Shown: positions 4,328 through 58,669, counted from the first letter of the whole stretch. The stretch is 60,537 bases of DNA, filler included, from Asterionella formosa (GCA_002256025.1; 7 parts of 7 records of this genome joined end to end with filler, not necessarily neighbours in it); one strand, 5' to 3'. A program made the numbers and translations. Notes: generated by a model not told the origin, from the sequence alone.

Positions 4328-4639
4328 TATTTTTTAACTGATGACAGCTCTTCTGGACTCTGTTCTACCAGGTACTGTTTGTTTCATCCTGTCGTCAATC
4401 ATCATGAAACTGGATAATGTACCCGGTAGTTGCTATATTGGTACTCTGGAACTGATTTATATATTGGTATATGCCTTTGGGTGTATTTTTTAACTGATGA
4501 CAGCTCTTCTGGACTCTGTTCTACCAGGTACTGTTTGTTTCATCCTGTCGTCAATCATCATGAAACAGGATAATGTACCCGGTAGTTGCTATATTGGTAC
4601 TCTGGAACTGATTTATATACCGGTATATGCCTTTGGGTG
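4328..4639. repeat. Tandem duplication, 2 x 156 bp, nearly identical
   Basis: TATTTTTTAACTGATGACAGC... starts at 4328 and again at 4484; about 3 differences. Confidence 0.95.
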
Positions 4640-5595
4640 TAAAGTAGTATTGAAACTACATACAGCAACGTAGATTCAATACAAACGTATAAATGACATC
4701 ATTTGTTTTGTTTGAACACGAACTATGTGCATACATATTGGCATACTCCTGATTTATATATGTGGTGTGAAGCAAATTGTGTCTACAAACAGCAACATAA
4801 ATGTAGCTAAATAAGATGTTTAAATTTCAATTTTGTTGTTTTAAAATGGAACTCTATCAATCTGGCACCAATTACTAGTATTCAATTCAAATATTTAAAT
4901 GGACGCTCGAATCATGGGAATTCATAGAAGCAAACTCCTTGCTTGTTCCCTGCTGTTTTTACAACCCTACTAGCAGTCAGTGTTTTCTACAAAATAGGGT
5001 TAAGCCGGGGCCGCAACCTTAAGTACAGTACCAGGTAGTAGAGCAGACCTGATAAGCCAACATGTTGCTCCAGTAATGCTCGATCACGACTCCAGACATC
5101 ATGCGGTCGACTTTCAGGAGTATGCATGTGTTCGTACATGTACCTCCCGGTATACTGGATAATGAAAGAGTTATTTCAAGAACCACAGTACAGCGTGTAA
5201 CAAACCTGGAGTTAGGGACATGTGAGGTAAAACAGCGCTGTATGGAGTATGACAAGCGACTTACTGACATCATCAAAGATGATAATCACACCATAGAGGA
5301 GCAGCAGGATGAGCGTCAGTTACAGGAATGGGATGGCTACACCGAAGATAATCATACAGAATTCGCAACACAATTCAATGCAGTCATATCCGATTCAAGT
5401 ATTCCAGAAGTGGATGAAACCTTTACTCTTGTCACCTTTCATGATACATACCTCAACAAGAAATTAGCATTGACAAGGGGAGCGAACGACAATTGCGATG
5501 TACAAGTTGGTAAAGTTAGAAAAGCGGCTATGCATGTGATGCAGAAGGACAACCGATTGGTTTGGCAAATGAGAACCCTTTATTAGACACGAGAG

Positions 5596-5840
5596 GGGAA
5601 TGGCTTAGTGGTTAGCACACCCGCTGTGGTGGCGGGTTCGATTCCTGTATTCTCCACCTGTCTTTTTCATCATGTAGTCCCCAGGGTTCCGGGGTGTGTG
5701 GCTGACGAAAAGACAGGTCCCGTTGTACCGTACAGACGAATAAAACCGGTACTAATTGTGTCAATCATCTATTTGGTGGGCCCGAGTGCAATTATTGGAT
5801 AGCTTCAACGTACCATAAAATTAAATTGACATTTTTTTCA
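5596..5840 (+). mobile_element. tRNA-derived SINE-like insertion in Copia pol, with a 16-bp TSD
   Basis: A box TGGCTTAGTGG at 5601, B box GGTTCGATTCC at 5635. TSD TTATTAGACACGAGAG (5580-5595) / TTATTAGACAGGAGAG (5841-5856). Removing it restores NPLLDTREYSVEF. Confidence 0.88.
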
Positions 5841-8144
5841 TTATTAGACAGGAGAGAATACTCTGTTGAATTTAAGGATGGCGTATCAGAATCTTTATCT
5901 GCTAACTTAATTGCTCAAAACTTGTATTCACAGATTGATGAAGAAGGGAATAGGCACATTCTTCTAGAAGATATCATCATTGACCATTGGCAAAGTAATA
6001 GCGCTATTGACAAGGAAGACGCCTTTATAATGATGAAGAATGGCGTTAAAAGGAGGTGTGAGACGACACAAGGATGGCACATGTTGTGTTAGTGGAAAGA
6101 CGGTAGCACCAGTTGGGATGCTCTGAAGGATGCAAAACATTCATACTCAGTCCTAGTTGCAGAGTACGCAATTGCCAACCAAATAGATAAGGAACCTGCT
6201 TTTGCTTGGTGGTTTGGCAATGTAATAACGCGCAACAGGATCCTGTCCAAAATTAAATCTCAGTACTGGCATCAAACGCATAAGTTTGGAATTCGTATTC
6301 CAAAATCAGTTGGACAAGCAATTGCAATTGACAAACAGAATGGCAATACTCTCTGGTGGGATGCAATTTGCACAGAGATGAAAAACGTGAGGCCAGCATT
6401 TGAGATGTGGGAACAGGATGAAAAGGAACTGCCTCTGTGGGGTACCAGAGAATCAAGTGTCATTTCATATTTGACATTAAGATGGGTGAGGACTTCAGAC
6501 GAAAGGCAAGATTAGTTGCCAATGGTAATGAAACAGAGGCCCCAGCAGACGTACTACTCAGTGGCTTCAAGGGATTCAGTGAGGATTGCCCTCTTAATTG
6601 CATCTCTCAATGACCTTGAACTGCTGGCCTGTGATATCATCCAAAATGCATACTTGACTGCTGACTGCCGTGAGAGAATATACACTATTGCAGGCAGGAC
6701 CAGAATTCGGATCAGAAGCTGGAAGTGTGATGGTCATTCGAAAAGCATTGTATGTATTAAAGTCTAGTGGTGTGGCCTTTCGAGCAAAATTTGGCTGAAG
6801 TTCTGTATGATTTGAGCTAGCTATGTGCCGACAAAAGCGGATTCAGATGTATGGATTCGACCAGCAACATAACCCAATGGCTTTAAGTACTATGAAATGA
6901 TGCTCACATATGTTGACAATATCTTATGCATATCCCATGACCCACATGCAACTATGAAGGGCATCCAAGCAACATTTAAATTGAAAGACGACAAGATTGA
7001 AAAACCAGAAAATTATCTTGGGGCACAGCTTACACAAAAGACCATTAATGGAACGTAATGCTGGACAATGTCATCGGAGCAATACGTTAAAGCATCCATT
7101 GCAAATGTTGAAGCAGCGTTCTTGGAGTCAAGCGGTCAGAGATTGCCATCCCAATGCACCACACCGATTCAAGCCGATTATCGACCGGAGTTGCACACAA
7201 CAGCGGAGCTAAAATTAGAAGGCATCCGCTATTATTAAAAGATGATTGGAGTCTTGCGGTGGGCGATCGAACTTGGCTGGTAGGATTGATATTGCAATGG
7301 AAGCAGTGTCAATGCTGTCTTCTCAGCTTGCGTTACCTCGAAGAGGGACATCTTCAACAGGTTTATCATATCTTGGGATTTTTGAAAGCAAGACCTAAGC
7401 GAACGTTGGCATTTGACGCCCAGCAGCACCCTGATATTGATGAATCGAGTTTTGTTAAGTGTGATTGGCATGATTTTTATCGAGGGGCAAAAGAGCCAAT
7501 TCCAGGGGACATGCCAGAACCCCGTGGAAATGAAATGTCAACAAACTGTTTTGTTGACGCCAACCATGCAGGTAATCGTGTAACAAGGCGCTCACAATCC
7601 GGTATCCTACTCTTTGTTAACAGGGCACCAGTAGTGTGGTATAGCAAACCCCAAAATATGGTTGAGACATCGACGTTTGGTAGCAAGTTTGTTGCCATGA
7701 GGATCACTGTGGAGTTAGTGGAGGCTCTGCGCTACAATCTGAGAATGTTTGGAATACCAATAGAAGGTCCAACCAACGTCTTTTGTGACAACAAGGCAGT
7801 TACCAAGAATACTTTTTTCTCGAAATCTACGCTCAAGAAGAAAAAACAATTCAATTGCTTATCATTGTTCAAGAGAGGCAGTTGTAGCAGGCAAAATCAG
7901 AGTGACAAAAGAGGATGGGAAGACATATTGGCCAATGTGCTGACTAAGCCACTAGCACAAGCAACCAAAGATTTTTATGAGATCAATTCATGTATTGAGA
8001 TTGAACACAGCCTAGGTTCACTACGCGTCATGAGACAATGCTTGCTGGTTACCTCCTGGACATGCAAGACATGTGGCTTTGAAAACCATGTCATAGGTTT
8101 GCAGCAAGCAACATCTTGGACTCCTTCATATTGCTTGAGGGGAC

Positions 8145-8462
8145 TGAACAATCAAGGTTGGCGTGAAGTACGTAGCAATACGTAGCAGTATAAACATGGT
8201 ACAGCGGTGACTAGTCATTATAGCATGTAGGCATTGGCGATTGAGTGAAAGTTTGCGTCTGTTAGTTAGAGATAGTGAAAGCATGAACTGAGTACTCAAT
8301 CTCGCTTACTCTTTTTACAATTAATCCTTTTAATAAAGCTTAACATTTTTACCCTTTATCTAAGTTACCGGTAGTCACAATGTCGGACTTCACATAGCGA
8401 TTTTGATTTGATGTACCTATATTCTTACTACGCTGGTAGGACCCTGGTTCTATGGTACATCA
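8145..8462 (+). repeat. Putative 3' LTR
   Basis: TG immediately after the polypurine tract; AATAAA at ~8332; possible end ...ACATCA at 8462. There is no second LTR to confirm the end. Confidence 0.45.
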
Positions 8463-8575
8463 GTTGGTTCGAATTGGTCGTCTCGCTGTCGATTTTTTAT
8501 TGATGTATACCGGTACATACCGGCGTATAATATCATGCATGTAATACTTGTATGTATTATGGACACTCTCTAAAA

Positions 8576-8675: not shown

Positions 8676-8795
8676 AAGTATAGTGTGCATCGACTCAATT
8701 GTTGCAGAGCCGTGTGGTGATTGATGTGAATGCAATATCAAAAGATGAGTTGCATTTCAGTTTTATCGGACAGCCTCTTTGACATTTACGTTGGC

Positions 8796-9414
8796 GGCTG
8801 TAGCCGTTTTCCCTAGGACTCCGGTTTACTACATAACTCTTTTGCGGTGGGCTAAGTAGACACCTACTGTAGGTTGTACATACCGCTGGGTGATGATGGT
8901 TATGGCGGGTTTACTGTGTAGGGATTCCGACACATTTTAGACAGCACCGTACTACACAGAGTCCGTAGACTAGGTTTCCGGTTGGGCAGGTGGTTTATGC
9001 TTTTTCGGACGACCGTTTCGGTGTATTAACGCAATATTATCCTTCCTTGGGCTCCTGAGCTTGCTTTCGTCGTCAGTACTGCTCGAGCCAGTCTTCCATT
9101 TCAATGAGGTTGCTTTCAAAGTCAGCAGTTTTGATGAAAAAATGATTCTTTTTTCTTTTCAACTGCCAGAGGTTGAGGTGTTTGGTGCTGGGGACTGCTG
9201 CTTTATTTGCTACGTCACTACATCCCAGGTTACAGTGGCTGTAGCCGCTTTGCCTAGGACTCCCGTTTACTGCACAACTCTTTTGCAGTGGGCTAAGTAG
9301 ACACCTAGTGTAGGTGATAATGCTGGGTGATGGTGTCGTTGGTGATGGCTGGTTTACTAGGGTTTCCGACACCTTTTTACCCACCATACACAGAGTCCAT
9401 AGACTAGGTTTCCG
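8796..9414. repeat. Diverged direct repeat, ~180 bp (8796-8979 vs 9237-9414)
   Basis: GGCTGTAGCCG...CCTAGGACTCC...GGGCTAAGTAGACACCTA...ACACAGAGTCC.TAGACTAGGTTTCCG in both copies. Confidence 0.85.
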
Positions 9415-11380
9415 CCCTATGGGCCATAGGCGAAAAACAGGGGTGGGGCCGCTGTTAGGGGGGGGCAATTGGGTGGGGTAGGTTGAACAGGGCATTGGGA
9501 ACGTCCTGGCTGGGAATGAAAGAGATGGCATTGGTGAATATCTGCATGGGGGAGACCCACATATTCACCAGGCCACATAAGGTAAATTATGCCTTAATTG
9601 CCATATCCATGCATAGTGGCCCGACCAATGGGGTTGTTATTTGTCATGGCCTGCTTGTGCTGGGCATGGAAGAGGAGCGGGAGGCTGATAGGTTTGACAC
9701 GCGATGGGTGTGCGCGCATCAAGTTTTCTGTAGAATGTTCATTGTCAAAGAAGACAGAAGTCTAGGTCCCCAAAGGGGTTTAGACGAGGTCTGAGGACCC
9801 CAAGCTGGAGTATTTCTGCGCAATCTGATGCACGGCATCTTCCACTGTACAAGCCCAGACCTGGCGTGGTGTTGTTTGGAGGGGGAGATAGTGCTGTATT
9901 GGTTTTGGCGCTGTCAAGAGCAACAATCGATAGCAATGTGCGAGTTTTGTCAAGGGAGCATTGTTCCTCGCTTGTGTACCATGATGTGTCATTGTTGGCA
10001 GACTGCTGCATGTCCCTGGCTAGTATCGATATCTTCTTCCCTTGCCTGCAGATCAACATTATGCTCAAGTTTGCTCTGCATTATGTGAAGTTATGCCATG
10101 GGTATAATGTGTAACAGTTTACTGTGTCGATGGTTGATTAATCAGCTGAAGAATTCAAAAAATGTATCCAAGAGAGTTGTGCCATTTAACGAAGGGTTTC
10201 ACGCCAATAAAGGCAATGTTGTTTAATGGAACAAAATGAAGGAGGGATTTGGTGTGATCCAATTGCATCTCAATAATTCAAGTGCTTCCAGTAGCTACTC
10301 CAGCCACTGTCCCACCTGTCATCCACCACTGATGATTTTGATGTAGTACTAGATGATTCCAAATGAAGGAAAAATAATATAGATTACATGTCAATGCTAG
10401 TAGGATGATTGATTAGAAAGCTAGGCTATCACTCTAGCTAATTGGAAAAACGGAAGGTTTTTCTATTCTAGAATACCAACATACAAATGCATAGTCATAT
10501 TAGATTTTGATGGGCAGTTTAGATAGGCGTAGTACTAGCTGCGTAAGAATAAGGAATTTACAGGAAACGTGGTGCTACTATTATTCAAAAAACTACAGGT
10601 ACAGACTACCGGTAGCTAAGCGACTTCCTTTGATCCTCCGCCTCCTCCTTCGGTTGCGTTTTCTCGTTTTCTTCCTGTATAGGCATGTTTAACTGGTATG
10701 TACGGAAGTGTAGGAGCGGTCGTCATCTGATGAGTCGCTATCATTGCTCATTTCATCAGGCAGATATGGATGAGTACCAGTACCCTGGTATGCTACCACA
10801 AACCACACAATGCGTCCCATCATTTTCTAATTGGTAGTACCGGTAATCGGGTTTATTAATATAACGATACACATGTAACAACATTCTAGTGCTATTTCTA
10901 TTCGCTAAAAGTTTCGGCGCGAGATATTGTGGTATTTCCATGATGGAAGTAATTACCAGCAATTATACAGTACTACCGGTAGGCCATATGAATTTTGGTC
11001 AATATGTCTATATACATGAATGTATGATTTCGACCATTTGAAAAATTGGTGATGACTCCCGTTTATTAAGGGGCTTAATTAAATCAGCCACTGACTTGTA
11101 GGTACAAGAATTGACACACAAAAAATTGAAAAAACTCAACAGGTCGAGGAAAGCTATGAACTCATCATGCATTGTATATATTTGAATTATGTATAATCAA
11201 AATTGATATTAGTATGCACAGGATGTGCCATATAATAAGCGTGTTTAAAACTATGCAAATGTTCAACTATATGTACATTTGAACTTCTTATAAATCTTTA
11301 TATATATGTATTCATGGCTGAAACATTTGAAATCATTTTTTCATGCATACACTTTGCTCCTGAAATGAAGGATTAACACA

Positions 11381-11657
11381 GATGATGACGCGGAAAACGA
11401 AAGTGATAATACAGCACAATGATACTTGCGGCTTAGAAGAGAAGGGCGGAATCAATTGATGGTAAGGCAAGAGCAAATGCCTTTCATGTTCCTTGTCATG
11501 CTGCATCGCTCCACTTCCTGAAATGAAGGATCTCAAGCAACACATGATGCGAAAAACTGAAGTGACAATACAGCACGATAAGAATGAGTGAATATGATGG
11601 AGAAGGGCGGAATCAACAAGCTGTGCATAGCATCACGGTTTGTCAAGAGCAAATGCC
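11381..11657. repeat. Degenerate ~160-bp duplication
   Basis: AAGTGA.AATACAGCAC, GAGAAGGGCGGAATCAA and CAAGAGCAAATGCC each occur twice. Confidence 0.6.
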
Positions 11658-12639
11658 AAGATGATCAATTGCTGGGATTACAAATACGGAATGACTCGTC
11701 CCCTTTCAGTGATTCAATAGCTCCTTTTCGATTTGGTGGCTGGCCAACCATCAATGTGGACAAAAGAAATCGGTAAGTGCTGCCTATCAGCCATCTTTGG
11801 ATCAATCTACAACTGTTAGAAAAACTGACACATATGTGTTGCTTCTTTCAGGATAATGGTAGACAAACAGTATTTGTAAGTTACAAACAGCAATGTTGGA
11901 GCCCATTTATTGATAGATACTTTGCTTCTCATTCAATCTTCGACTGACACATTTTTCTACAGAAATATGCATCAGTTACCTCCTCAATTTGTGGTAAGTG
12001 AAGGCAGATAGAAGCGAAATGCATGTTGTTGTGTAAGCAAAACATGAACAGCTAACAATGAATTGCTTCTCTTTCTTGTTAGGATGGCTGATTGGAACAA
12101 CGAAACGGATTTAATAGTGCGTGAATGCAAACTCAGAACCCTCAGGAGTAAATGGAACAAAGGAAGCAGGGTAACAACGACAAGACAACCAGTACAACAA
12201 CCTTCAGAATTGGATTTGGGGGAATGTGGAAGTGAAAGTGAAAGCTGAAGCACCAATCATTGCGATGAGAGCATTGTAGAACATTCTGTAGCCACTCAAG
12301 ATATAGAAACATAAAACCATTCTTAAATACAGTTCTAAATTTCGATCAATTTCATCCTATTTTAGACAGTGATATTGATGAGAATTACGATCATGTTAAG
12401 ATAGATGTATGACAAAAGTATACACATCATACTAGTATGACCATGTTTAACTAATTATATGATGCAATGGTATTATAACTATGATAGTCTCATCATACTT
12501 CAAGCTCGGTAAAAGTTTACTGCATGATCATAATCATATGATACATTGATCATATTTTTGATCGAAAAACTATCATATATTTGAAAATCCTGTGCCACTT
12601 AGCGTACAATACCCTTGATCATATTTTCATGATTTTTTT

Positions 12640-15600
12640 TCCAGATGTTTCCTCCCCAAGACTTTAGCAATTTCATTTCTGTCCCCTCTCAGGAGATATA
12701 TTTCGGCATTTTTCAATTTGTGTGGGCCTGAAACAATTTCTCCTGTGTTATCAGTGGGATTAAGAGAAACAGCATGGTCATCCATATCTTGTGGGTGAAA
12801 TGGTTCTTCCATTTCTTCATTAGGGGCATTATGGATGATTGTTTCATCAAATGCTGAATAGATGTCCGCAATCTCCTTGTCAAAATTCAGTCTCATATTC
12901 TGTTCAGTGGCATCGGTCCACTCCTCTTTTGTTATGGTTTGAACTGTGGATCTGGCAATAATCCTTCCATTCTGCTTCAACACATAATAGCACATTGCCT
13001 GTCCTACATTTTCTGCAACACCAAGCCATCTTCCAAGATCATTTTCTGTCCCTCCTCCTCTAACGTTGTGGTATTTTACCCAGCCATAGTAATCGAAATG
13101 TAAATATTCAGATTTATCTGGTGTGATGCCAGTCAGCTTTTCAATTGGGGTGCATTCATTTGTCAGATGACATGACATTCGTTCTCTGATTTGCAAAGTA
13201 TATTCAATACTATAGTCCCAAAACCGTTCAGGGCATTTGGATCTATGCATAATATGCCTGAAATGTCGTTTTAGTTCTTGTATCTCTCGTTCAGCACGAT
13301 TCTGCCAAGGAGAATGTGGTTCTGTTGTCCTTTGTTGGAATAGGTATGTCTTTCGCACTCGTTCCCAGTCTGAACCTGTTTCTTCCCCTGCGTTATCAGA
13401 CACCAGGAACAGGGGTATCCCAATGGTGGAACAGTACTAGAGGTCAAGCTTATCAAAGGCCTGCCCCTTGCTTGACAGCGGGTAAATACGGGAATGTCCA
13501 TCGTCTGTCACAAATAACTGTGCACAGTTATTCCCACGTACACTGGTTGTGTCATTGAAAAGTGTATCGGTAAAGACTCCAGTGCGAAGGTGGGGGTATT
13601 GCATATGAGCCTTTCGGGTTCTGAAACGGCGTATAAATTGGTCTTCAATGTATCTCCAACCCCGCTGTGTAGTGGAATCAAGGGTTTTCATGGCTAAAGG
13701 TTCACTGATTCCCCATTGCCGGGACAAGGTGGAGGAGTCAACTTGAGAGCGCCGATTCATGCTGGATGTATTGGCAACATATCGGTTGTGCATAAAATCA
13801 TAACATTCAAGAAGATGTAAAGGTGGGAGATGACCAGTACCTAAAGTTGCTGAGGCTGATACGAGACCTATGGTAGCATGGGACAGGTATGGGCGTTCTT
13901 GTTCAGTGAAACGTGGGTCATAAGGATTCCATTCTTGTTCACTGGTCATCTCAATCCAGCAACAGTTTTGCAATTCGGATGTGGTTGGGAGCCGAACTGG
14001 GAAATAAGAGGTACAGCCATGAAGCTGGAATGGAATAGAGATACCAGACAAGGGGTCATGAATGCCATGGAAGGAGTTGTTGGAATATTGACGGGGAAGT
14101 GGGTCACAGAGTAACCCATTATCACAAACTTGTTGCGGAGGGATCAGTGAGGTCTCCATTGTCTTGCCAAAATAGAGGGCTTCATTGAAAACAAGGATTA
14201 AAGTTTCTTGATCTGCGGTGTCATAAGCAGTTGCAACCTGTGCTATGGGGACACCTGTAATGGCGCCCAGATCACTATGAAAACCGCTTACATCTGCGAT
14301 GCGACCGCTTTGATGAATTAATGCAAAACCTTGGCCTGCACACACAGTATCTGCCCTAGTATCAATTTCAGCCTTGAACCGGCCTTGTTAGTCATCAGAT
14401 TCCTGGAGTTTATTTAGGCGACCAAAGTGGCGATTATTTGTCACAATGGCACCCATGTTCCGCCTATGACCAAAATTCTGTGAGGCATTTGATGGGATGC
14501 CAGTCATGCTTGGGCTAGGGATCCCAGAGGGTAGCGTGTTTTGAGAAATACCACTAACCATAGATGCTGTTTCTGTATTGGTGGTGCTTGCCCCCACTGT
14601 TCTTTCATTTTGGTGTGCTGGCGAAGTTGCAGTATCAGCTTGACATAATGCATCCGGGCCCTGTAACATGTACCAACTTTGTTGAGGAGTCAGGGAATTC
14701 AGAACCTCTTGTGGGATATAGTCGGAATTTTGTTCTCAACCGCAGCCTTGGCCTGTCGTCCCAGCATAGCGACCATGTCCCCTGCCAGCATTGTGTTGGT
14801 ATCTCCCTCCCCTGTTGTTGTGACGGCCTCTGCTGTTCCGTCCCCGTCCTCCATCACGGTGATTGTATATGTTTGTATTACCAAGAGTTCGCTCATCTTG
14901 GCTTCTATTATTGGTGTTGAATGCTGCAGGTTTTTGATTGATTCCACAAATCTTTCATTTTAATAACTGCAGCTTGTAAATCTGCTTTTGTCTTGTCATT
15001 GGTGTCCATGATAAGAAACTTTAGGCCTTGCATGCTGGGATGTTTGATGCAATCTAGGAAATTTCGAACCTGAGGGAAGCCGTCACGTCCCACATTTAAT
15101 TCTTCCATCTCACTGTTTGATGTAATGTGAATAGAACAGTATTGTTCAAATGTGAATTGAGAACGGTCATCTGGAGATATCCTGCAAGATCAATTGATTG
15201 ACTTGTGCTTCATTTAGTTGCACAACCTGTAGGAGGCAGGGTGTCTCGAAAATGAACCTCCTCACCATCCGTTAATTTGTTCTTCATCCAATTTTTTCTT
15301 TTTTTTCTTTTGCCATACACCTCGTATGCTTGGTCCAGTGACCTGTCACTCCTAAATGGGTGATCTTCTCTTAACAGTAAGATTCTGTAAATGGATGTTT
15401 CGTAGTGGTGTAAACCAGTGCCAGGAATCTCAGTTGTCCCCAACTGGTGTTGTGACAAACGTAAGAGCGTAACTCACGCTCAATGCTGGCGCCCAGTCAA
15501 CAAACGGCGTCACAATCGATTTCAAATCGAATTCGTTCACTACTCTTTTCTGAGTCTTGTGGGTCTGATAAACTGTCCAGATCTCGCTTCTGTGATAGAC

Positions 15601-17263: not shown

Positions 17264-17402
17264 NNNNNNNNNNNNNNNNNNNNNNNNNNNNNNNNNNNNN
17301 NNNNNNNTTAATTAATTAANNNNNNNNNNNNNNNNNNNNNNNNNNNNNNNNNNNNNNNNNNNNTTTCACACGCATTTCAACAATGTAGCTTTTTGTTTTT
17401 TC

Positions 17403-17700: not shown

Positions 17701-18773
17701 AAGCGGAAGCCAGAAGAACAACTGCAACATGGGCTGCAAAGAGAATCGAAAATGCTAAATCAAGAACAAAGAAGAAGACTGCAAGAATTACAGCAGGAAC
17801 AAAGAAGGAAAAGTACACATCAAGTTTCACACCAATAGTTTGATCATGTCTCTGCCAGAAACATGGCTACTGACCCCTTCTTGATTCCCAATATGCACAA
17901 GAAAAATGATTATATGGCAGAACAAAATTAATGCTTAGATTATGGCTCGCTCTGTACCTGGTACCAGGTACCCTAAAAACCCTGATAGGAATGGAGCAAG
18001 CACCAAATATTTGTGTCTATTATTCCTTGTCTGCATCATGTGTATTGATCGAAAAAATTCTCTCCGGAAATGCAACCTGGTTAATTTATTTAGCTGTTCC
18101 TCCTTTATACTCATTGCCAAGATGTTGCTCACTGCTACCATATGTAGGTCAACAAGACATCGATGTACTGGTAGGCTGGCCAAAAACATTCACTAGCCCT
18201 AATCAATCCACATTTATCGCTATCTAGTGTACTATACAAATACTCAGCTTAATGTGCTACACCAGTACCAGGTACTGTACACAACCATCAACCTAACCGA
18301 AATAGCCTTCTCCACCCCCTTCTTGCTTAGACTAATTTTGACTGCTCTACAGGGGAAAGGTTTGCAAAATACATATCTACCAGCCACTATATTAAAATTG
18401 GCTGGCCTACAGTTAGGCTAGTGGTCTATGAACATGATATTTTTAAGCATTTGCATGTGAAAATAATCAAACTTTATGGAGTTTCTTAGGTTGCACAGTG
18501 GTGTGGTTAGACCTATCAGGGGCAATCACAACTGATTGAACTGGTGTGGTGTGTTCATAACTGCACGAGAATAGGTTGACAAATTGTGTGATAAAGGTGG
18601 ACCTTAAGCGAGTTTGGCCAAGTTGTTCTAATTCTAGGTTGAATGTTCTTTTGTTTCAAGTGATGGGAATGCAACAGGAAACGAACTTCATTGTGTTCCT
18701 CCTCTGATCAAACAAGAATTCCGCCAACCTTGGCGAGTATGACATAGAAATGCTTAACATGATTTTGTCTCTG

Positions 18774-19784: not shown

Positions 19785-20968
19785 GATGTATGATATTGGA
19801 TTGACTCGTCAGTCGTTGATTAGTTACTAAGGCAATACCGATAGACATCTGCCAGGGGGAGTACGGCACTGCCTAGTATGGATGGATGATGGATTATGTT
19901 GGCAAATATGAACAACGGCACGGCATGAAGGTACTACGACCAGAAATGGCAACTGGCAACGCAACTGATTCGTTGACTTTGTATGCTTACCGGTATGATG
20001 AAAATGAGAAAATTAAAAAATAACAATGATCATAATGTGACGAATATTTTATGTACCACACCAACAGGTTTATTCGCGTGATGTCATAAAGCAATACCGG
20101 TAGTCTACCTAGGCTAGACTACCGGTATTACCGGTACTAAAGAAAGGTACAGTACCTCAGCGATGGTCCCAGCAAGTTGCGGTAATTTTGCTGAAATTGA
20201 TAATTTCACGCAGGACAGGCGTTGATTATGACATGCTGATTCTCCCAAACTCAATCAGTATTGTGATTAGAAAGTTGGTGACGAGATTCTAGTCCTATTG
20301 CATAATCCACATACCGTCTTGGATGACCATGGACGAGGTCCTTATACTATTATTCAAGTACATCCCAATGGCACAGACACTTTTCAATGAACTACTATGC
20401 ATATTACTGCATGAATGAATATTCATTATATCAAACCTTTTCTTAGCTGAAAGGTTTTCCCTTAGCGTGGGAGAATGAGTGATCCCACTCAACAACACAT
20501 ACACCTATAGGGTTAGGGCTACATAGATTATATCAGAATTTAATCAGGAAAGAACTCAACTAACAACCTAGAAGAATTAAACACAAGGATTAACTAATAA
20601 GCTCATATATTCAACAAATACTACTTATTCTAGTTAGATACTTCATCTGGTACTCCGGCGTCCGGAGTATCAGTTAAAAATGGCTTCGAGCCATGTCGAA
20701 TCTCATGCCTTTGAGCCACTAAATGGTATAATATTTACTTTGTATATTCATAGATATTTTCTAATTTTCCAGTTATGTCAATTTTTAGTACGACAAAGTT
20801 GTTTCTGATGTTGCGCTGGATACAACATATCTTGTTGTCGATTAGGTCTTATGTTTTAGATAATCAGACACCGGTAAATGTGTTGGAAAGTAGCAATCAG
20901 CCCAAATGTGGCAAAAACAATATTATACCATTGAGCCGGCATCTCCTGGAAAAACACAAGTGCATTTG

Positions 20969-24050: not shown

Positions 24051-25227
24051 TGTGAAGAAAAATTGATATCTATAATGTATTTAGTTGTGTTGAACCGCCA
24101 CAGACAATAAACTATAGCGATAAATGAATCAATTAGTCACTCTCTGTAGTTATTGAATGCAATATTTCGAAAAAAATCGCGCCATATTTACATGTCAGCA
24201 ACCGTAATTCACATTAGAAATTTCTTCCGACGCACCACAAAATGAAGGAGATTGCGATCATCTCATTGACAACGATGAAACCTACAGCAACGAAAAAGCC
24301 TTAATCATCTAAAAAGTACAAGGTGATACCTAATTCTTTGCATATGACTGTAGTCTTGCTTATTTTAAAGAAGTCAATGTAAATTTAACAACCATAGAGA
24401 GTGTATGGAACGACTGTTATTCTCTTCACAATATAATTATCATAGTGAATTGTGCTATTCAGTTTCCTGCGAATATTTGAATGGCCACCAGATGTAAAAC
24501 CACATTTGGCAATATGTAGATGTACTCAATGAATATATTTATGTTCAATTGGTTTCGATTAATTTATTCAAATGCTAATAACTTGTATGTGATTGCAAGT
24601 TTATACTCACATCTAAATACCTGATAAAAAATTTTGGCATTTTTTCGAGTAAGAAGCCGGCCCTCACATAGAAAGATGGAATGTAGTCTATGTATTCCAT
24701 CCTAAAATAAGATGCTTGGCACTGAGTGTTCCGATAATTGATGCAACTAATATTGGACAGAGGGAGTACCAGGTACCAGTTTCCTGATACCCTGCCAACT
24801 AGGGTTGGCTAAGAGTGCAAACTCTTGATGGTAGTGGAATGGAGGTCCTGTAATGACTGAAACTTTTTAATCAGTCAACGAAAATTCTCATTAGCAATGT
24901 AAAGTGGATAGGTGCACTATATCTAATAATATATTGGGCAAGTTCCAACTTTCCTGGTGAATCCACATTGACAAATGACACATCACTGGTACCAATAGTG
25001 TCTCCAATGTACATTGCTTTGTCTGCAACAGGAAGTGACGCAAAACTCATAGCCTGCAAAATTTGCATATGCAATCACAAAAGTGAAGAGTGCCGACCGC
25101 TAACGGTAACGTCATGAAAGTAGATTGTTAGGAACTGCAATGCAAGGGTAAATTTTCATAAACGAGAAACTCAACCCTCAGTGATTCGAAGCTTGACAAA
25201 CGATTTTGCCGGGGACGAGATGCCACA

Positions 25228-29292: not shown

Positions 29293-30519
29293 GAATATTA
29301 AAATAATACATTGTACTCCGTACTCATACTACTCACCAAGTTGATTTCTAACTACTATGAACTGCTTATAGACCATTATAACCGGGTAATCTTACATTTT
29401 TTACTACAAACTTTTTCAATTTAGCAATACGACAATATTTACTATGAATAAGTCATTTGTTTCACGCATCTACATATATCATGTCTTAATGCCCGATCGA
29501 TGTTGTGTTCCAATGATACCGGTAGTTCGCACCATAGCAATTTAGTGATTTTGTACTGTCAACATAGATGCATCCTGAAATGCTCTTGAGACCATCACAA
29601 CATACCACATTTTCATTTCTCCGGATCTTACAACTTTGTATAGTGATACGAAGAAGTACCAAACCTTAAGCAAGTACAGAGTTATTTGTAAGTCTCTAGA
29701 TAAGGATTTAGTAAAGCTTGTTCTAAACAACAGTGTCAGAGACGAAGTAGACGCTAGAAAGGCTAATGGTGGAGGAGTTGTTTTACCAAGTTTTGCTATT
29801 GCTAGCTAAATTATTAGTTGACACAATAACGTGGCTAACAAAAGACAAGGTGAAGTACCCTTTGAAGAAATTGAATAATGACAACAAAGATCTAGTAGTA
29901 GGGGGTTTGAATTCTATAGTGCTATTGAATTGTTCCCCAGCAGAATGAATCGAAACTAGCAGTACACTTACCTTTGGAACCAGAGTCACCACTACTGAAT
30001 CGTCCACTTTGACACCAGTTACATGTGATGCAGATAAACACAGCAGTGACAGAAACAATAATCTAGCCGATAGACCGGAACAGCATGAGACTCAACAAAC
30101 ACAACTTTCCGGTGAGAAGGGGGGGAACAAATACAAACGAAAAAAGTGTTCCATTGAGACCATGAAACTTGCTCCAGCACCACATGTATGTGGTGGGCAT
30201 CAATCTTGATCAGATGGCTTGCCAGTTGGCGCTATTGGCGATCGCGCAAAATAAATGGTTCATGTGGTGGCTGGACGCTTTCAACTGGGAACGGAAGCAC
30301 TGGACGATATGACTAGGAGAAAAGAAGAGCAGAGTAGAAGGAGAGTGAGAAAGCGAATAAGAAAGTTATGGATTATAAAGCAACATTGAACGAGGTGCAA
30401 GGGATCAGAGCACTCAACAAACGGCCACACAAATGGATGGTGGCACAAACAAAAACAATCGTGTTGTGGTACAAACGAATTGGCGATGCACAATGCATTA
30501 CTTGCAACGAAACAACTAC

Positions 30520-30855: not shown

Positions 30856-30875
30856 AAAGTCGCACACAATGAACT

Positions 30876-32237: not shown

Positions 32238-32640
32238 TTTGAGGCAACGGACAGTGGTTCCAATGAGCGAATGATGATACCACGGGTACCAATTTTTCCA
32301 ACGAAAGGACTTGTCTCTCTATTGATGAGGATGACACGGACACCGACTTTTTCAGGAGCAAACAACAATGAAGAGACCCACTTGTTGCTCTATTGATGGT
32401 AACAAAGATATGGACAAATTCAACAGTGAATACAAGAACAACATACCATTGAAAACAAGTCGACCGTGTGTGCACGCACACGCCAAGCAAGTTTGAGGCA
32501 ACGGACAATTCCAACAAGCAAATGACGATACAGATATCAAATTCTTCCTACGAGCAAACAACAATGAAAAGAGCCACTTGCTCTCGCTCTCTTGATGGTA
32601 TCAAAGATGCGGACAAGTTCAATAGTTAATTCAAGTAAAG
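32238..32640. repeat. Degenerate two-copy duplication
   Basis: GTTTGAGGCAACGGACA at ~32238 and 32491; GAGCAAACAACAATGAA..CCACTTG..TTGATGGT at ~32356 and ~32551. Confidence 0.7.
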
Positions 32641-33343
32641 TATGCCAAATGCAGAAACGAGCGAGCGATATGAAAATGAAATACATTCTAATCAGAATCA
32701 TTCTATAACTATAGCTATGTGGACAGTAGTCTGTTACGCACATTTTCGTATCTCTTTCTATGCTGAATCTCAATAGTAGATGTAGTATCATGTGAGAATT
32801 GAAAATGTCAACGAGAACAAGTAGAATGTGTTTGTTTACGGGTTGATTGGCGAGATTGTCATGCTGAAGTGGACGAAACGGATTTACTTTGTGCGCTGTG
32901 TGCGGAAACATTACGAGTTCGAATGGTTTCTTCTCTCCTGTAAACTCTTAATTGAATGATTATGAACAAAGGTTCACTGCACATGACGATCACTCGAAGA
33001 TATAAAGATCACTTGACCAACAAATTGAAGACGTTATCGCGAACATTCATTCCACTTGTCATCGCTAGTATGTCGTTGTTGTTGCAAAAATCGGAGTGAT
33101 GAGGGGCGGATGGAAATGATGAGCCAAATTACCGGTACATTACTTGAACTGGTACATTATCCTACCAAGAAATTCGAATACAGGAATCAAATAGAAACAA
33201 TAGATATAATAATTAAATATATGTAGTCAAAAGGGTTACTATTTAAATTACAAAGGCATTTATCAAAATTATTAGATGATATAACGAAAAATTATGATCA
33301 GATGATCACAATCCTATGATGCATCATGGAAATATGATAGTTT

Positions 33344-38800: not shown

Positions 38801-39557
38801 ATGACTGGGAAGCCTTTTTTCAGAGAATTGTCATCATGATTGATGTTTTGTAACTTCTTTTGAGATGTGCTCTCACCAACACGTTTACCAGTTCGTATTG
38901 GCAGAATACCGTTAATTGTAGATGTTTCAAAATCAAAGCTTGAAACTTTATCTACCAGTACCGGTTTACTACTTCCATTTCTGGCGCGCCAAAACTAAAA
39001 GTTACCCCGTAGGTGTGTTAGGTCATGAAGAATTATTAATGGATCATTCATCAGTTAACGTTTCTTACTTCAAAGATGAAATCTGAGTATATAACGATAT
39101 AGATATGTCATATGTCGATCATAATCAAACTAATATGCATTGTGTTGATATCGGTCATTCATTCTAATATACCGGGTATCTTGAATACCGGTGATGTCCG
39201 AGTCATGTACTGGTAAATACCAGCATACATCATAGTTATGTGTTATGTACCTGGTACCAGTGGCACCTGGCACCAATGACAATTATCCACTATTCCTTAC
39301 CATAGATATGATTACTAACATGTATACGGTTGAGGATATTCCAAGTCTTGAAAAGTTTATCTTGTCATCCATACTTGTAGGATATTGAATGCTCCTTTGA
39401 AATAGTTATAGACATTCATAGATGAAAATAATAAATAAATTTTGAAGAATTGGAAATTTTGATAAATGATTGCGAAATTGAAGTACTTCTGATTTCACAC
39501 AACCGGATGATGAAGTGAAGATCGACAGCCTCCTATCGAACTAACCTTAAAACTCAG

Positions 39558-41860: not shown

Positions 41861-41888
41861 TGCTGCTGTGGGGTGTCATGTACATACC

Positions 41889-42286: not shown

Positions 42287-42545
42287 CCCGGTATCATGCC
42301 TGGTGAATCGCCTGGAACCAGGTACCTGGTACCATGGGTACCTCCATGGTCCTCCCTGGTGGTAGCAGGTACTGGTAGCTGGTAGTCGTTCTTCTTGGCT
42401 GCTTTTCTTTTGCCTCGCTCGCGCATATCAATAGATAGCAATATCGGTACCTGGTACCAGGTACCGGCAATCATTTGAAGTCGCATACATGCATCACACA
42501 GCGTTGTTGTCAGCGTTCTTGCCTTTGACGCTATCAATCGTGACA

Positions 42546-46806: not shown

Positions 46807-48501
46807 CGTCCTCCCTTTCACTGGTCGACGACGAAAGCGAACAATGCATAGTCTTCAGCATTCAAATTATTTCACTTTACTTTTATTTCGTCTTGATTCG
46901 AATTTGGGGCAAACAACCCGTCGTCATAGGCAGCAGTCAAGCAAGAATGTACCGGTCATCATGTCATCATAGCAAGGGACATCCGCGTGCGTAATGACCA
47001 CAGTCATCTTAGCCCCAATCCTCCGATCTTACCTACCGGGTATATGAATATATTTATAGCCGTGTGTATAATGTAGAAATAATTGTATAAATACTGGCTG
47101 GTACATGATAAAACCAAGAAAAGTTGCACGATTGAAAAACCACACAAATGCCAAAAATTATTTTCTCCGGAGAAAAAAATTCTTTGTGCTTGCTCATAAC
47201 AATGACATTGCTTTTCAACATTATTTACATTGCTCACATGCTGGGCTGGTGCCTCATCTGTAATCATTTTGTTTACTTTTTCCATCCTTCCAAGGACTAT
47301 GATCATGATGACAACAACAATCAACCTTGCTTGTTGCTTGTATATTGTCTGATTTTCCAAAATGAGCTTTCTATTTGTTCCTGAGCTGGTGAATAACTAC
47401 AATTTAGTGCTAATGACTTAGTAGTGAGTACTGGAGTACTAGTTAGTTGGTGATGGCAATGGTGATTTATGTAGAATGAGCAAGTAGAAAGTGATGTTAC
47501 TACTAAAAATGATGGGAATATATCTACCAGTATATCCCAACTACCATTTTTCAGATAGTATTAACCATCCAATATTGCTAATAGCATATAAATCAGTTGC
47601 ATCCACTTACACAGTCCCTACAGAAGAAATAGTTAGCAGCACTGAAACAATGATAAAATTCAGGTGCACAAGTGAGCCAAAGAATGTAATTCTATTGATC
47701 AGAATGACCTTCACTGGAACCTAGTAATCAGTCGTGGCTGCTGTTATTGGGGTTAGAGGATGAATGCTCACAGGGGGGTGTTTAGTACTCTATGGTTGAT
47801 TTTCATCCAGGAATGTTTGTACCAGTTTTCATCTATGTATGAATTTATAAATATATGTATGATGTATATTACCAGTAGCGAATATCCATACATGAAGCAA
47901 ACATTCAAAACTGGAACAAGAAATCATCAAAGTAGAGACAGCCAGCTACATCACAATCAGGTAATGACAAGAAATGTTGAGATGTTCCAGATCTCTTGAT
48001 AGTACTTACATGCCCAGCGCCCAGTAGTAGTTCTCCACTAGCTAGTAGTTTGACAACGCTTTAATCTAGTTTTAGATTTGCCTTTTTCAATGTTGTGATT
48101 ACTTCAGATTAATTTTTCTTGCAATCTTGCCAAATTACTTGGCCTTACCAAATTGATCTTGCTTCATGAATTTTACTTTCTTGGACTTGTTCTTCACCTC
48201 CATCCACTCTTTCTCATTGGTCAATTTCTTGTAAACTAATTGTAATTATTTCTAAACTATCAATCTTGCCAACTGGTCCTGCTAACCTTAATCCTGCCAA
48301 ATACAATTCAAGACTTCTACCTACCGGTACTCCAACTAATTTCGATCCCACTTTCAGTCCCATAAGTCATTTCGCGACTTGACTCATTAGACTGGCAACG
48401 TCGCCCGGAGTTTTTATAACTCCAGCTGACAGTCCATTTGCAAAAGCTTGTTCATATTCACAGAAGGACTTGTGACTGAATTCCTTTCTAGGGGACGAGT
48501 A

Positions 48502-51895: not shown

Positions 51896-52829
51896 NNNNN
51901 NNNNNNNNNNNNNNNNNNNNNNNNNNNNNNNNNNNNNNNTTAATTAATTAANNNNNNNNNNNNNNNNNNNNNNNNNNNNNNNNNNNNNNNNNNNNCAGAT
52001 AGACTCCTACTGCGGCCAAGGTGCAAGCTGTGCCAACACTGCGAATTGACGCCATCATGGTAGAATGCACTTCAGGCCACGAAATGTGGGGACTTGAAAC
52101 ATCCATTTTATGATATTCCGTTCTCAGATCAGATCAGATTTGTGCTTATTGTTCAACAAAAGGAGGCTATAGTGTGAGATGAATGCAATTGAAGTTGGCT
52201 ATGAGCCTAACGAGAACTGCAGAATAAGTAGTCAGCTTCCTTGGACACGGCCATCGGTCAACTCAGTGGGAAAGTCGCAATCAAAGAGGTTGGGGATGAT
52301 GGAAAGTGCTGCAAGAAATTTGTGCGTGGCTGGAACATGATGCGTATTGTTGTTGCTGTGTGTAGACTTCGTAAATATGGAGCACTGAATTTTATTAAGC
52401 CAGTTACAAAATGTAAAACCGGTACCTATATCATCACATCTTGCGCATCCTGGATCAGTCGTGTCTATAACTTGTTCACGACTACCGGTATACCGGTGAC
52501 CGGTAAACATATGTGCATATTTCGTATTCATAGAAGAATAGCTCCTTGACCAGTCTCAAAGCTGTATTCGTATACCGGTAACTGGTTGCAACGTGAAGAT
52601 CAATATAGTTGGTTATGTAGGCCTTAGTACAAATTTTCTTTTGCATTTAATAATTGAGAGTAAAAAATGTTGACTTAGATATATACCGGTATATTGCCCA
52701 CAGCTCATTTCCCCACTAAAGGTATATAAAATCTATCTGTTGTTCTTGTTCATGATCACTGATTTTGTTGCTTGCTTCTTGTTTGCTCCATTGTATTCTT
52801 GTTCACTATGTCAGATCATAGACATAAAT

Positions 52830-56510: not shown

Positions 56511-57080
56511 ATATATTGAGTGAACAGACCTACACCCCTACTTTTTCCGAAGACTATTTAAGCATATGTAAGGGGTGTCTATTGGTGAAAGCTCCTTTGA
56601 GCGTTAAACCTATTTGATTTATATATGGAAAGTATGTGTTTGATTAGTCTGACTCAATATTATTTTACTAAACCTACCTCGAGCTAGGGGTTCAAATGCA
56701 GCAACCTTAAGGAAACCATTTTATATACTCTACAGATTTTAATAATTTATATCTAGAATTCACCTCGTTTTTGTTCGACTCCTGAAAAGTGGGCAATTCA
56801 CCTTTCACAATGCCAATTGTCGTCCATAATGACCGGTTTGAAGCGAAATCAGTTCAGTGATAACGCCAGTAGCGATTCTTTGTCTAACGGATGCGGTTGG
56901 TTCTTGGATTTCTTGTCTTCTCGAGGGATTCATGTAGTCGCATCGTCCATATTTCGTCGGACGAACGATGATATCAATACATCTGATGTTGGTGGCAAGT
57001 TTATGCTCCGGTCATGTATGGCTGCATGAGATGATGCTTAACGGATATTCTACCGGTAGTCATATAGTCTACTTACGTAC

Positions 57081-58352
57081 GTGGTACTAAAAACAACCAT
57101 GCATGGTTTAAGCTATACTTTAACGCTTGCTTTGAACATGTTGTAATATTATCACTTTGGACTCGGTATTATCTTTACGAGACCTGAATGTTAAATTTTA
57201 TCGTTCACATATTGATTGATTTTATGTACCGTATGCCCGATTTCGTCCTCACAATTATAATTCTCACTCTATCCTGCCTAGTACCGTTGCTCAATTCGGG
57301 CTTGCAACAGGAACTTTCGACTTTCTTATGAGCCCATTGTTACGCTTGTTTGAGCGGATCGGTGAGTACAACAGTGAAACACTGAATTTGATTGTAGATA
57401 CTAATTGTCGAATTTCCGATTTGATTGCTTGCTTCCATTGTCTGTTTTGATCGCTTCCGTCGTCGTTTGTCGTTCCGTACTGTCGTTTTGATTCGATTTT
57501 ATCTATCTACATAAGAACCAATGTATGTTTCGATGACTACTCTTTGACGACATATTTTTGTTGATCATATTTGTTGATGTGTATAGTGTGTTGTTTACCA
57601 TGATGTCAATATTGCCGCCAAGCAATGCTTTTCTTGTACTAACGCGCTTTGCTACATATCTACTACAAGTTCGTATCACAAGCTACATAAATACTCAGCT
57701 AGAGAGAGTCAACAGTGCGGGAGCAGCGTGGTGATCAGACCACGCTTGCTCAGAATGGAATGATCAGGAATGCTTGTTTGGTGGGCGGAGGAATGACTGT
57801 GGCGGAAATACTGCTACTGGTGTCAGGCTACTACAGAGATGTGCATGGTTGTAGCAACCAGACCATTTAAGCTTCATAACGATGCAGGTCTAAATTGGGT
57901 TCAGCTTTTTTCTTCTTATTTCGGTCTTCGATTATGTGGTGATGGAAAGTCAATGTTGCCTGTGTCCATAAGTACTACAATGATTCACAATGCATACGTC
58001 TTGCTCCATTGAAACTCCTATTTTTTACTTCATTTCTAACCCAAAACAATTTTTTCTATTTCTCATTTGACGTTACTTATTACATCGCATTTCATACTTT
58101 GGTTGCTCCAAACATCATGTTCAATTTTCATTGATGTTGCATGTTGTTACAATCATTCTCGTGTGTTTTACGCTTGTTGTACCATCTCCATGCATATTAC
58201 CGTTATTCTGGCTGTCATGCTAAAAATCGGCAATTTAATGCAGAAAAAATCGATGTGCCCCCCCATATTGCCCTTAAATAAAAATTACTTGGAGCCTAAA
58301 AACTACTTAGAAGTACCCGAATGGCAAGACGATAGCTGGAGCGGGAATTGCT
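57081..58352. repeat. Longer copy of the repeat family at 40966-41860
   Basis: Shared ends; ~900 bp (57243-58145) is absent from the 41-kb copy. Confidence 0.8.
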
Positions 58353-58669
58353 TTAACATTAACCAGTATAGGAGTACCGCGGTACTATGTTTTAGGTAGT
58401 ACCTGGTGCCCTGGTACTTGGTACCAGGGTACTCGGATTACTTATGTTCTAACGTAGTGGCCATCATCATACCACCCACAAAATATTCCGCCACATAGTT
58501 GTCATTGCATGTTTGCGCTATGTACATACAAAAAATGTATGCATAATATATGATACTATCAAATGTACACCTATACCGTATATATTGTACATAAAATAGC
58601 AAGAATGACGATGGGCTGATTCGTACCGATAGATTCTTCTCCATTATCTCTTCACATCCATTACAACAG

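What the first reader, a model, noticed from the sequence alone, without database searches (positions are those of the whole stretch)
4618..58435. Strong non-coding enrichment of TACCGGTA and GTACCWGGTAC palindromes
Seen: at least 18 exact TACCGGTA (4618, 8366, 8508, 10607, 10838, 10974, 19988, 20095, 20120, 20129, 29517, 31667, 33130, 48322, 52483, 52573, 52684, 57051), against roughly 1 expected in 60 kb at ~40% GC. Related nested palindromes include CGGTACCTGGTACCAGGTACCG (42445-42466, perfect 22 bp), GTACCTGGTACCAGGTAC (17954-17971) and clusters at ~24767, 39247, 42316 and 58399. The two motif types together occur in all seven independent contigs, inside different repeats and upstream of genes. 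I saw none in intact CDSs. Inference: a genome-wide, HIP1-like over-represented palindrome with CCGG/CCWGG cores (typical cytosine-methyltransferase targets), produced either by a sequence-specific mutational or insertion process or by selection for a protein-binding site.
Basis: partly seen in the sequence, partly recalled or inferred. Interest (0 to 1): 0.75.

Follow-up and report, generated by a model that had tools for sequence, protein, structure and literature searches.

The report
Transposon excision scars in a diatom
The palindromes TACCGGTA and TACC(A/T)GGTA are tiny insertions at a plain TA, most likely scars left where cut-and-paste jumping genes landed and left again; they pile up in front of this diatom's genes, and a second, unrelated kind of jumping gene lands inside them.

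Summary
Observation confirmed. The window has 18 TACCGGTA and 11 TACCWGGTA. Genome-wide there are 28,528 and 26,886 (reversed-pattern controls 1,718 and 902). The HIP1/methylase reading fails: only TA-flanked CCGG/CCWGG cores are enriched, and repeat copies with and without a motif differ by clean 6-, 7- or 14-bp insertions at one TA, not by point changes. That is the anatomy of Tc1/mariner/pogo excision footprints. Two resident pogo families begin TA|CCG (one with TA duplication shown at empty sites and an intact transposase) and can explain TACCGGTA. The 7-bp class sits in G-TA-C contexts and comes with TACCAGTA and TACCAGGGTA but not their CCTG mirror forms. This predicts a TA|CCAG-ended element, which I did not find. 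The abundant MITE that seems to end in CCW instead duplicates CWG (Harbinger/NuwaI-like): it lands in the 7-bp scars and does not make them. Scars avoid long ORFs and are 2.8-fold enriched just upstream of them. No element-to-scar pair at one site was seen. Earlier notes of this scan reached the same reading on other pieces of this genome.

The parts
4366..5037 (.). Scar cluster in and beside a 156-bp tandem duplication: TACCAGGTA 4366, 4522, 5029; TACCCGGTA 4420, 4576; TACCGGTA 4618
8366..8515 (.). Two TACCGGTA; the site at 8366 has 2 homologues 6 bp shorter (80% identity, not clean)
8915..8925 (.). Empty TA site (about 8919): the 96% homologue L033 carries an extra CCGGTA here
10607..10845 (.). 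TACCGGTA 10607 and 10838, 8-bp TACCCTGGTA 10781; empty TA at about 10794 where L033 has an extra 7-bp unit
10925..12640 (.). 1.7-kb dispersed repeat with sharp ends (over 30 matches listed; LTR-like by its place beside retroelement-like ORFs, inferred). It carries TACCGGTA at 10974; copy L054 lacks exactly CCGGTA
17954..18274 (.). Two chained 7-bp units (T then A) at 17955-17970 and a single unit at 18266; present ungapped in an independent run
19988..20136 (.). Four TACCGGTA upstream of the minus-strand gene 18774-19808; 20095-20127 is a 33-bp inverted repeat bounded by two scars
20169..20225 (+). One end of the CWG-duplicating Harbinger/NuwaI-like family (CAG, then TIR starting CAAGTTG)
20570..20652 (-). 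One end of a second, probably CWG-duplicating family (TIR starting GTGA; decayed here)
24766..24776 (.). GTACCAGGTAC
29517..33137 (.). TACCGGTA at 29517, 31667, 33130; at 33130 all 14 homologous alignments are shorter, so the motif is a gain in this copy
39170..39257 (.). TACCGGGTA 39170 and GTACCTGGTAC 39247
42316..42466 (.). 7-bp unit at 42323 in a degenerate cluster, and the 22-bp palindrome 42445-42466 (two chained units), just upstream of the first Met of a RING-finger ORF
47034..48329 (.). TACCGGGTA 47034 and TACCGGTA 48322
52483..52691 (.). Three TACCGGTA
57051..57058 (.). TACCGGTA; homologue L135 has a decayed form plus one added 7-bp unit at its second TA
58399..58435 (.). Degenerate chain with 8-bp TACCAGGGTA at 58422

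Best explanation
The motifs are excision footprints of TA-targeting cut-and-paste transposons (Tc1/mariner/pogo type). Step 1, shown for a resident pogo: insertion duplicates TA. Step 2, inferred from the known chemistry: excision leaves the element's first 3-4 bases as 3' overhangs on each flank. Step 3, inferred: end joining slides the overhangs together. CCG overhangs give TACCGGTA (2-bp CG pairing), TACCGTA and TACC(C/G)GGTA. CCAG overhangs give TACCAGTA, TACC(A/T)GGTA and TACCAGGGTA, and no CCTG forms. Step 4: the net change TA to motif is shown by empty/filled pairs. Step 5, inferred: the maker of the 7-bp class prefers G-TA-C, and each scar recreates such sites, so repeated visits build GGTACCW chains with mixed W. 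Step 6, shown by duplication pattern: Harbinger/NuwaI-like elements insert at the central CWG of the 7-bp scars. Scars persist outside coding DNA and decay at CpG. Odds: scars in general 0.8; resident CCG-ended pogos as main source of TACCGGTA 0.6; a separate CCAG-ended element as source of the 7-bp class 0.55.
For: Empty/filled pairs: of 590 distinct motif sites, 91 had a non-identical homologue; 42 of 69 TACCGGTA sites and 5 of 9 TACCWGGTA sites had a shorter one (redundant copies included). After clustering, 13 of 69 distinct 6-bp indel events are exactly TA to TACCGGTA; the filled allele is the minority in 8, tied in 3, the majority in 2. Two of 30 7-bp events are TACCWGGTA and one 14-bp event adds two units with different W. 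Source elements: 93 DDE_1 matches; TIRs start TA|CCG in two families with 115 and 324 exact ends; empty sites hold a single TA for L108 and L081; L081 has an open 421-aa DDE_1 ORF, E 1e-21. Predicted side products are enriched: TACCGTA 2.3x, TACCSGGTA 12x, and 2 TACCGTA indel events. CCAG series in G...C flanks: CCAG 36 vs CCTG 4, CCWGG 104, CCAGGG 15 vs CCTGGG 1. Adjacent W pairs: 19 same, 16 different. G next to the TA on at least one side in 81 of 88 single 7-bp units, against 72 of 173 6-bp units. CWG family: 783 exact ends; in one internal orientation W pairs are T,T 6 and A,A 2, never mixed; one copy has CCG on both sides inside TACCCGGTA; DDE_Tnp_4 ORF in L171, E 1.4e-9.
Against: No site was found with a whole element in one copy and a scar in another, so the element-to-scar step is not observed. 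No TA|CCAG- or TA|CCGG-ended family was found in about 1.0 Mb held, which is under 1.5% of the genome and biased. About 220 CCG-ended copies against 28,528 motifs needs a very large cumulative flux; part of the count is passive copying inside repeats (one site is shared by about 20 copies). Scars avoid T next to the TA (0.11) whereas pogo ends do not (10 of 46; my chi-square p about 0.13). The TA|CAGT-ended pogo family leaves only a weak TACAGTA excess (1.4x). 9 of 35 loosely paired CWG-family ends had unequal triplets (some are mispairings) and no true empty site of that family was found. In rice most excisions leave deletions or filler, not clean scars (PMC4423477, passages).
Confidence: 0.8

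Rival explanations
1. Same scar mechanism, other source: a pair of related elements ending CCGG and CCAG with 4-base overhangs made both classes, and the resident CCG(T) pogos account only for the minor TACCGTA class.
For: Sliding CCGG overhangs predicts TACCGGTA, TACCSGGTA and TACCGGGGTA (3 vs 0.24), exactly parallel to the CCAG series. It would also free the model from the flank mismatch at position -1.
Against: No TA|CCGG-ended family in the held loci, while CCG-ended families with TA duplication and an open transposase are present.
Confidence: 0.3
2. The 7-bp class comes from the same CCG-ended pogos, with repair adding one or two bases copied from a nearby decayed scar (TACCAGTA) or added without template.
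For: 7-bp units lie within 10 bp of another unit in 59% and within 100 bp in 86% of 162 cases. Copying from TACCAG would also give the A/AG asymmetry. Mixed 6/7/8-bp chains exist, and a pogo end sits on the last TA of a 7-bp chain (L114).
Against: The de novo 14-bp gain in L094 has no unit within 80 bp. 39 isolated 7-bp units keep G at -1 in 0.62 of flanks against 0.22 for isolated 6-bp units.
Confidence: 0.2
3. The CCW-bordered MITE family (783 ends) duplicates TA and leaves the 7-bp units.
For: Its flank profile matches that of the 7-bp units (-1 G 0.71, -2 G 0.63, -4 C 0.54).
Against: W is a direct repeat independent of element orientation; one copy has CCG/CCG; the family carries DDE_Tnp_4, not a Tc1/mariner enzyme; ends CCAG plus CCTG would also give CCTG scars, which are rare.
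Confidence: 0.05
4. A host process without transposon departure (a nuclease or polymerase adding a fixed oligomer at TA) makes the insertions.
For: Scars outnumber candidate elements about 130 to 1, and no element/scar pair was seen.
Against: The TA duplication and the inner letters match resident element ends and the sliding-overhang series. I know of no such enzyme (recall).
Confidence: 0.07
5. HIP1-like word made by methylation-linked biased repair, or a selected binding site built by point mutation.
For: A single palindrome dominates; 120 of 326 non-ORF motif events lie within 500 bp upstream of a long ORF, against 3,076 of 23,184 TA.
Against: Origin by insertion; other CCGG/CCWGG contexts flat; the commonest same-length variant is the CpG-decay form, 31 cases; motifs sit inside transposons and vary among their copies.
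Confidence: 0.03

Closest known systems
Excision footprints of Tc1/mariner transposons: Sleeping Beauty cag/ctg between TA duplications (PMC5224488, passages); Tc1 taCATGta (as cited in PMC3520976, passages); Osmar5/Stowaway 1-4 bp TIR remnants with re-insertion at a footprint TA (PMC1925063, passages); pogo-like Emigrant (PMC1636448, passages)
   Same: TA on both sides, inner letters equal to element ends, central mismatch resolved to either base, re-use of a scar's TA.
   Different: Scale and uniformity: about 55,000 exact motifs, about 0.5% of a 68-Mb assembly by my arithmetic, against single loci or experimental donors. In rice only 8 of 94 excisions were clean (PMC4423477, passages). The source of the 7-bp class is not identified.
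NuwaI group of PHIS transposons (PMC4482050, passages) and zebrafish Harbinger3_DR (PMC3016246, passages)
   Same: CWG duplication, DDE_Tnp_4 transposase, palindromic target with the core ACCWGGT.
   Different: TIRs start CAAG (second family GTGA), not GGG; host is a diatom while NuwaI was reported from 16 animal genomes; here the target sites are themselves insertions at TA. These elements use the motif and do not explain it.
Phytophthora motif-1 TACATGTA (PMC3520976, passages)
   Same: Hyper-abundant TA-flanked 8-bp palindrome upstream of genes in a stramenopile (12,070 upstream regions), identical to a Tc1 footprint.
   Different: Its authors rejected a footprint origin for its abundance and conservation and proposed a transcription-factor site. 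Here abundance is similar but insertion origin is shown. TACATGTA itself is not enriched in this genome (0.7x).
Cyanobacterial HIP1 (recalled, no paper read)
   Same: One palindromic octamer far above expectation genome-wide.
   Different: HIP1 occurs in coding DNA and is thought to arise by substitutions tied to a methyltransferase core (recall). These motifs avoid ORFs and arise by insertion.

Membership tests
Tc1/mariner/pogo excision footprints | Net insertion at a single TA, leaving TA on both sides | tested here: met
   13 distinct 6-bp, 2 7-bp and one 14-bp event; further cases
Tc1/mariner/pogo excision footprints | Resident element with TIRs, TA duplication and a DDE transposase | tested here: met
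   (L081, 2,464 bp with its TAs, 421-aa ORF; D-D35-D spacing by my count from the printed sequence)
Tc1/mariner/pogo excision footprints | Inner letters equal the element's terminal bases: 6-bp class | tested here: met
   Two TA|CCG families, 115 and 324 ends; CCGG ends would fit equally but were not found
Tc1/mariner/pogo excision footprints | Inner letters equal the element's terminal bases: 7- and 8-bp classes | tested here: inconclusive
   Spectrum predicts CCAG ends; no such family in about 1.0 Mb held; family searches PF13358 and PF01359 empty but insensitive
Tc1/mariner/pogo excision footprints | Same site seen with the whole element and with the scar | tested here: inconclusive
   Flank searches gave empty sites only; the indel table of public runs was cut
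Tc1/mariner/pogo excision footprints | Footprint produced in an excision assay | not testable with these tools
   Needs a bench assay
NuwaI / Harbinger3_DR (the element using the motif) | 3-bp CWG target duplication | tested here: met
   (26 of 35 loose pairs identical; one CCG/CCG); no empty site seen
NuwaI / Harbinger3_DR (the element using the motif) | PHIS-type DDE transposase | tested here: met
   DDE_Tnp_4, E 1.4e-9, in a broken ORF of L171
NuwaI / Harbinger3_DR (the element using the motif) | Second ORF with Myb/SANT domain | not tested
   L171 has further ORF pieces that were not scanned
NuwaI / Harbinger3_DR (the element using the motif) | TIRs usually starting GGG | tested here: not met
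   TIRs start CAAG; so it works like NuwaI but is not filed as a member
HIP1-type iterated palindromes | One palindrome strongly over-represented | tested here: met
HIP1-type iterated palindromes | Common in coding DNA (recalled) | tested here: not met
   5 of 180 in long ORFs that make up 28% of bases
HIP1-type iterated palindromes | Gained by substitution around a methylase core (recalled) | tested here: not met
HIP1-type iterated palindromes | Cognate methyltransferase or methylation at the core | not tested
   No methylome or enzyme search was run
Transcription-factor binding site | Enrichment upstream of genes | tested here: met
   37% vs 13% within 500 bp upstream; 4.6% vs 9.8% downstream; ORFs include transposon ORFs
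Transcription-factor binding site | Conservation at orthologous promoters | tested here: inconclusive
   Only 3 distant loci (two near-identical), with no TACCGGTA

The most novel reading that the evidence does not exclude
Transposon scars are the leading source of small insertions in this diatom's promoters and feed themselves: a TA-targeting element with CCAG ends rebuilds its own GTAC target at each departure, spinning out GGTACCW chains, and so manufactures the long target site that a different superfamily (Harbinger/NuwaI-like) needs. One transposon class builds the landing pads of another. By extension, hyper-abundant TA-flanked promoter palindromes in other eukaryotes, such as Phytophthora TACATGTA, would be fossil scars, not transcription-factor sites by origin.
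Probability: 0.35. Interest if true: 0.75.

Novelty: new variant of a known kind. Interest (0 to 1): 0.55.

Why it matters
If true, the commonest word in this genome is a tally of past transposon jumps: tens of thousands of dated, sequence-coded events that record end chemistry (overhang length), target preference and repair route for elements that have mostly left no copy. It would show that excision alone can remodel promoters, and it warns that motif discovery in algal and oomycete promoters can return scars. It makes a testable reinterpretation of a published Phytophthora motif and gives a sharp prediction (a TA|CCAG-ended element). I found no description in ten full-text searches; that library lacks most subscription papers and I read no supplements.

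Tried and rejected
1. Adapter or linker artefact: rejected. 2. One TE family carrying the motif: rejected; motifs occur in unrelated contexts and vary among copies. 3. My first idea that the CCW-bordered MITE duplicates TA and makes the 7-bp units: dropped. 4. 7-bp class as CpG decay of TACCCGGTA: rejected; the sister product TACCCAGTA is at expectation (3 vs 3.3). 5. Chains by slippage alone: 16 of 35 adjacent pairs differ in W. 6. Search for a CCAG-ended element: a lead with several flanks was internal to the 1.7-kb repeat; CCAGGTGA ends proved to be a second family with W in direct repeat; a TIR scan gave two weak pairs only, and it skipped ends reading CCAGTA. 7. PF13358 and PF01359 searches of the genome were empty, but L081 itself passes the PF13358 cut-off, so these blanks carry little weight. 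8. A fourth DDE_1-like family (694-aa ORF, 80 matches): ends not found from 3 copies. I looked at loci for 44 of the 93 DDE_1 matches. 9. Strain polymorphism from public runs: only contigs were available, and 89 indel rows were not shown. 10. Relatives: one metagenome scan gave 3 distant loci. 11. Loci for the repeat matches of window 17364-25931 were not obtained, so that contig's motif sites were compared only with loci already held.


Full report
1. Observation. The window is seven contigs of about 8.55 kb joined by N spacers, 40.8% GC. A window protein has named hits in three diatom genera, and public runs holding the DNA are mostly freshwater metagenomes. All 18 TACCGGTA and the listed nested palindromes are present. 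The genome G000 (68.4 Mb) has 28,528 TACCGGTA, 26,886 TACCWGGTA and 2,915 double units, against reversed-pattern controls of 1,718, 902 and 0. In 200 kb from five long contigs not picked for these motifs the rates are 465 and 360 per Mb, 62x and 41x over an order-2 model. An independent run carries three window units ungapped.

2. The core is not what matters. Among 16 palindromic dinucleotide flanks, only TA is enriched around CCGG (180 vs 3.6) and around CCAGG (162 vs 4.2) in the 460-kb sample. One-mismatch neighbours are 1.1 to 6.6x, led by TACCAGTA, as expected from decay of an abundant word. Motifs avoid ATG-started ORFs of 200 aa or more (5 of 180, 2 of 162; all TA 18%). They are enriched within 500 bp upstream of them (120 of 326 vs 3,076 of 23,184 TA), depleted downstream, and clustered (57% within 100 bp of another vs 27% simulated). 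The ORF set is a proxy: it ignores introns and includes transposon ORFs.

3. How the motifs arise. Comparing repeat copies gives the answer. At window 10974 copy L054 lacks exactly six bases. L033, a 96% homologue of window 8676-10925, has an extra 6-bp unit near 8919 and an extra 7-bp unit near 10794. Over 190 loci plus the window, 91 of 590 distinct motif sites had a non-identical homologue; 42 of 69 6-bp sites and 5 of 9 7-bp sites had a shorter one, with redundancy among copies. After clustering into events, 13 of 69 six-base indels are TA to TACCGGTA, mostly as a gain in one copy among many (minority 8, tie 3, majority 2). Two of 30 seven-base indels and one 14-base indel belong to the 7-bp class. 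These alignments were limited to 80-99.99% identity and ungapped 15-base flanks, which drops events such as L135 and L164 seen.

4. Candidate makers of TACCGGTA. The genome has 93 DDE_1 matches. Two families begin TA|CCG, with 115 and 324 exact ends. Empty sites of two copies of the first family hold one TA, and L081 has an open 421-aa transposase. Tc1/mariner excision leaves short 3' overhangs from the TIRs (PMC4423477, passages), and Sleeping Beauty leaves cag or ctg between the TAs (PMC5224488, passages). Two CCG overhangs can overlap by 3, 2 or 1 base, giving TACCGTA, TACCGGTA and TACCSGGTA; these are 2.3x, 50x and 12x enriched. This step is inference. A CCGG-ended element with 4-base overhangs would fit as well, but none was found. 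Flank profiles of scars and pogo ends agree at -2 and -3 and differ somewhat at -1.

5. The 7-bp class is a separate population. It has G beside the TA on at least one side in 81 of 88 singles. In G...C flanks the counts are CCAG 36, CCTG 4, CCWGG 104, CCAGGG 15, CCTGGG 1. Two CCAG overhangs overlapping by 4, 3 or 2 bases, with mismatches resolved to either strand, give exactly the three enriched forms and neither rare one. Single-base slips in TACCWGGTA would be symmetric. So I predict a TA|CCAG-ended element preferring GTAC. I did not find it. Each scar at GTAC leaves two GTAC sites, so chains follow. Mixed W in 16 of 35 adjacent pairs fits repeated independent events better than slippage. 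A rival is templated or untemplated fill-in at pogo breaks next to older scars.

6. A tempting false source. A 95-bp MITE and longer relatives appear to start TA|CCWG (783 ends) and share the flank profile. But W is always a direct repeat whatever the internal orientation, one copy has CCG on both sides, and a 2.7-kb member carries DDE_Tnp_4. It duplicates CWG, like NuwaI (PMC4482050, passages) and Harbinger3_DR, whose target is AAACACCWGGTCTTT (PMC3016246, passages). It inserts into the 7-bp scars. A second family with GTGA-starting TIRs appears to do the same. Ends of both lie in the window at 20169 and about 20650. No empty site of either family was recovered.

7. Against my reading. No element/scar pair at one site; the source of half the motifs is unfound; scars outnumber CCG-ended copies about 130 to 1; a CAGT-ended pogo leaves little trace; the sample is 0.7% of the genome and half of it came from contigs picked for an array. 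Upstream enrichment fits insertion into open chromatin and survival outside ORFs, but function was not tested.

8. Comparison and novelty. It works like a Tc1/mariner footprint, and the 6-bp class meets every defining feature I could test. Re-insertion at a footprint TA is known from Stowaway (PMC1925063, passages), and TIR remnants at empty sites from a pogo-like MITE (PMC1636448, passages). What differs is scale and uniformity: about 0.36 Mb of inserted sequence by my arithmetic, where rice shows 8 clean excisions of 94 (PMC4423477, passages). A Phytophthora study found TACATGTA in 12,070 upstream regions, noted the Tc1 footprint identity and rejected it (PMC3520976, passages); this genome shows that abundance is no argument against scars. 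HIP1 is recalled, not read. Ten searches found no account of this; supplements were not read. Earlier notes of this scan on other pieces of the same genome reach the same reading, including the Harbinger point; I looked at them after forming and testing mine, and they are not independent support. The CCAG sliding-overhang prediction did not appear in the lines I saw.

9. Verdict. Real, genome-wide, and best read as mass transposon excision scars with a second superfamily using them as targets. New variant of a known kind; interest 0.55; confidence 0.8.

Noticed in passing
held loci, genome-wide: Other TA-flanked insertions: TAGCTA is 22 of 211 four-base indel events (88 vs 41 expected in 260 kb) and TAGACTA/TAGTCTA 3 of 49 five-base events (41 vs 18.5); probably scars of further elements not identified.
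   Followed up: partly
window 20095-20127: A 33-bp inverted repeat built of TACCGGTA and TAGTCTA/TAGACTA units around a 7-base centre.
   Followed up: no
L194:1295-3376 (G000:C13531): Open 694-aa DDE_1-like ORF of a distant multi-copy family (80 matches, mostly broken) followed by a tandem repeat of about 190 bp; ends not found.
   Followed up: partly
L081:781-1218 +: The CCG-ended pogo carries a second, convergent ORF of about 145 aa that is also seen in the sister family; not scanned for domains.
   Followed up: no
L017:4549-7776: A 3.2-kb member of the CWG family holds unrelated ORF fragments, possibly captured host DNA.
   Followed up: no
L209 (Ga0100402_1019493): A distant relative's locus has no TACCGGTA but 5 TAC(A/T)GTA and 8 TAGCTA in 5.3 kb, hinting at other scar types in other diatoms; tiny sample.
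   Followed up: no
window 20969-24051: A 3.1-kb dispersed repeat with sharp ends and dozens of copies at about 90% identity.
   Followed up: no
window 523-1572 -, 27546-28502 +: Copia-type gag and reverse-transcriptase fragments.
   Followed up: no
window 33344-34021 -: 225-aa ORF without Pfam match that resembles Crypton/GCR1-type transposon proteins by recall only.
   Followed up: no
L017:about 1900-2100 and 7800-8300: Long degenerate GGTACCW tracts (21 exact 7-bp units in 10 kb) mixing several unit types.
   Followed up: no
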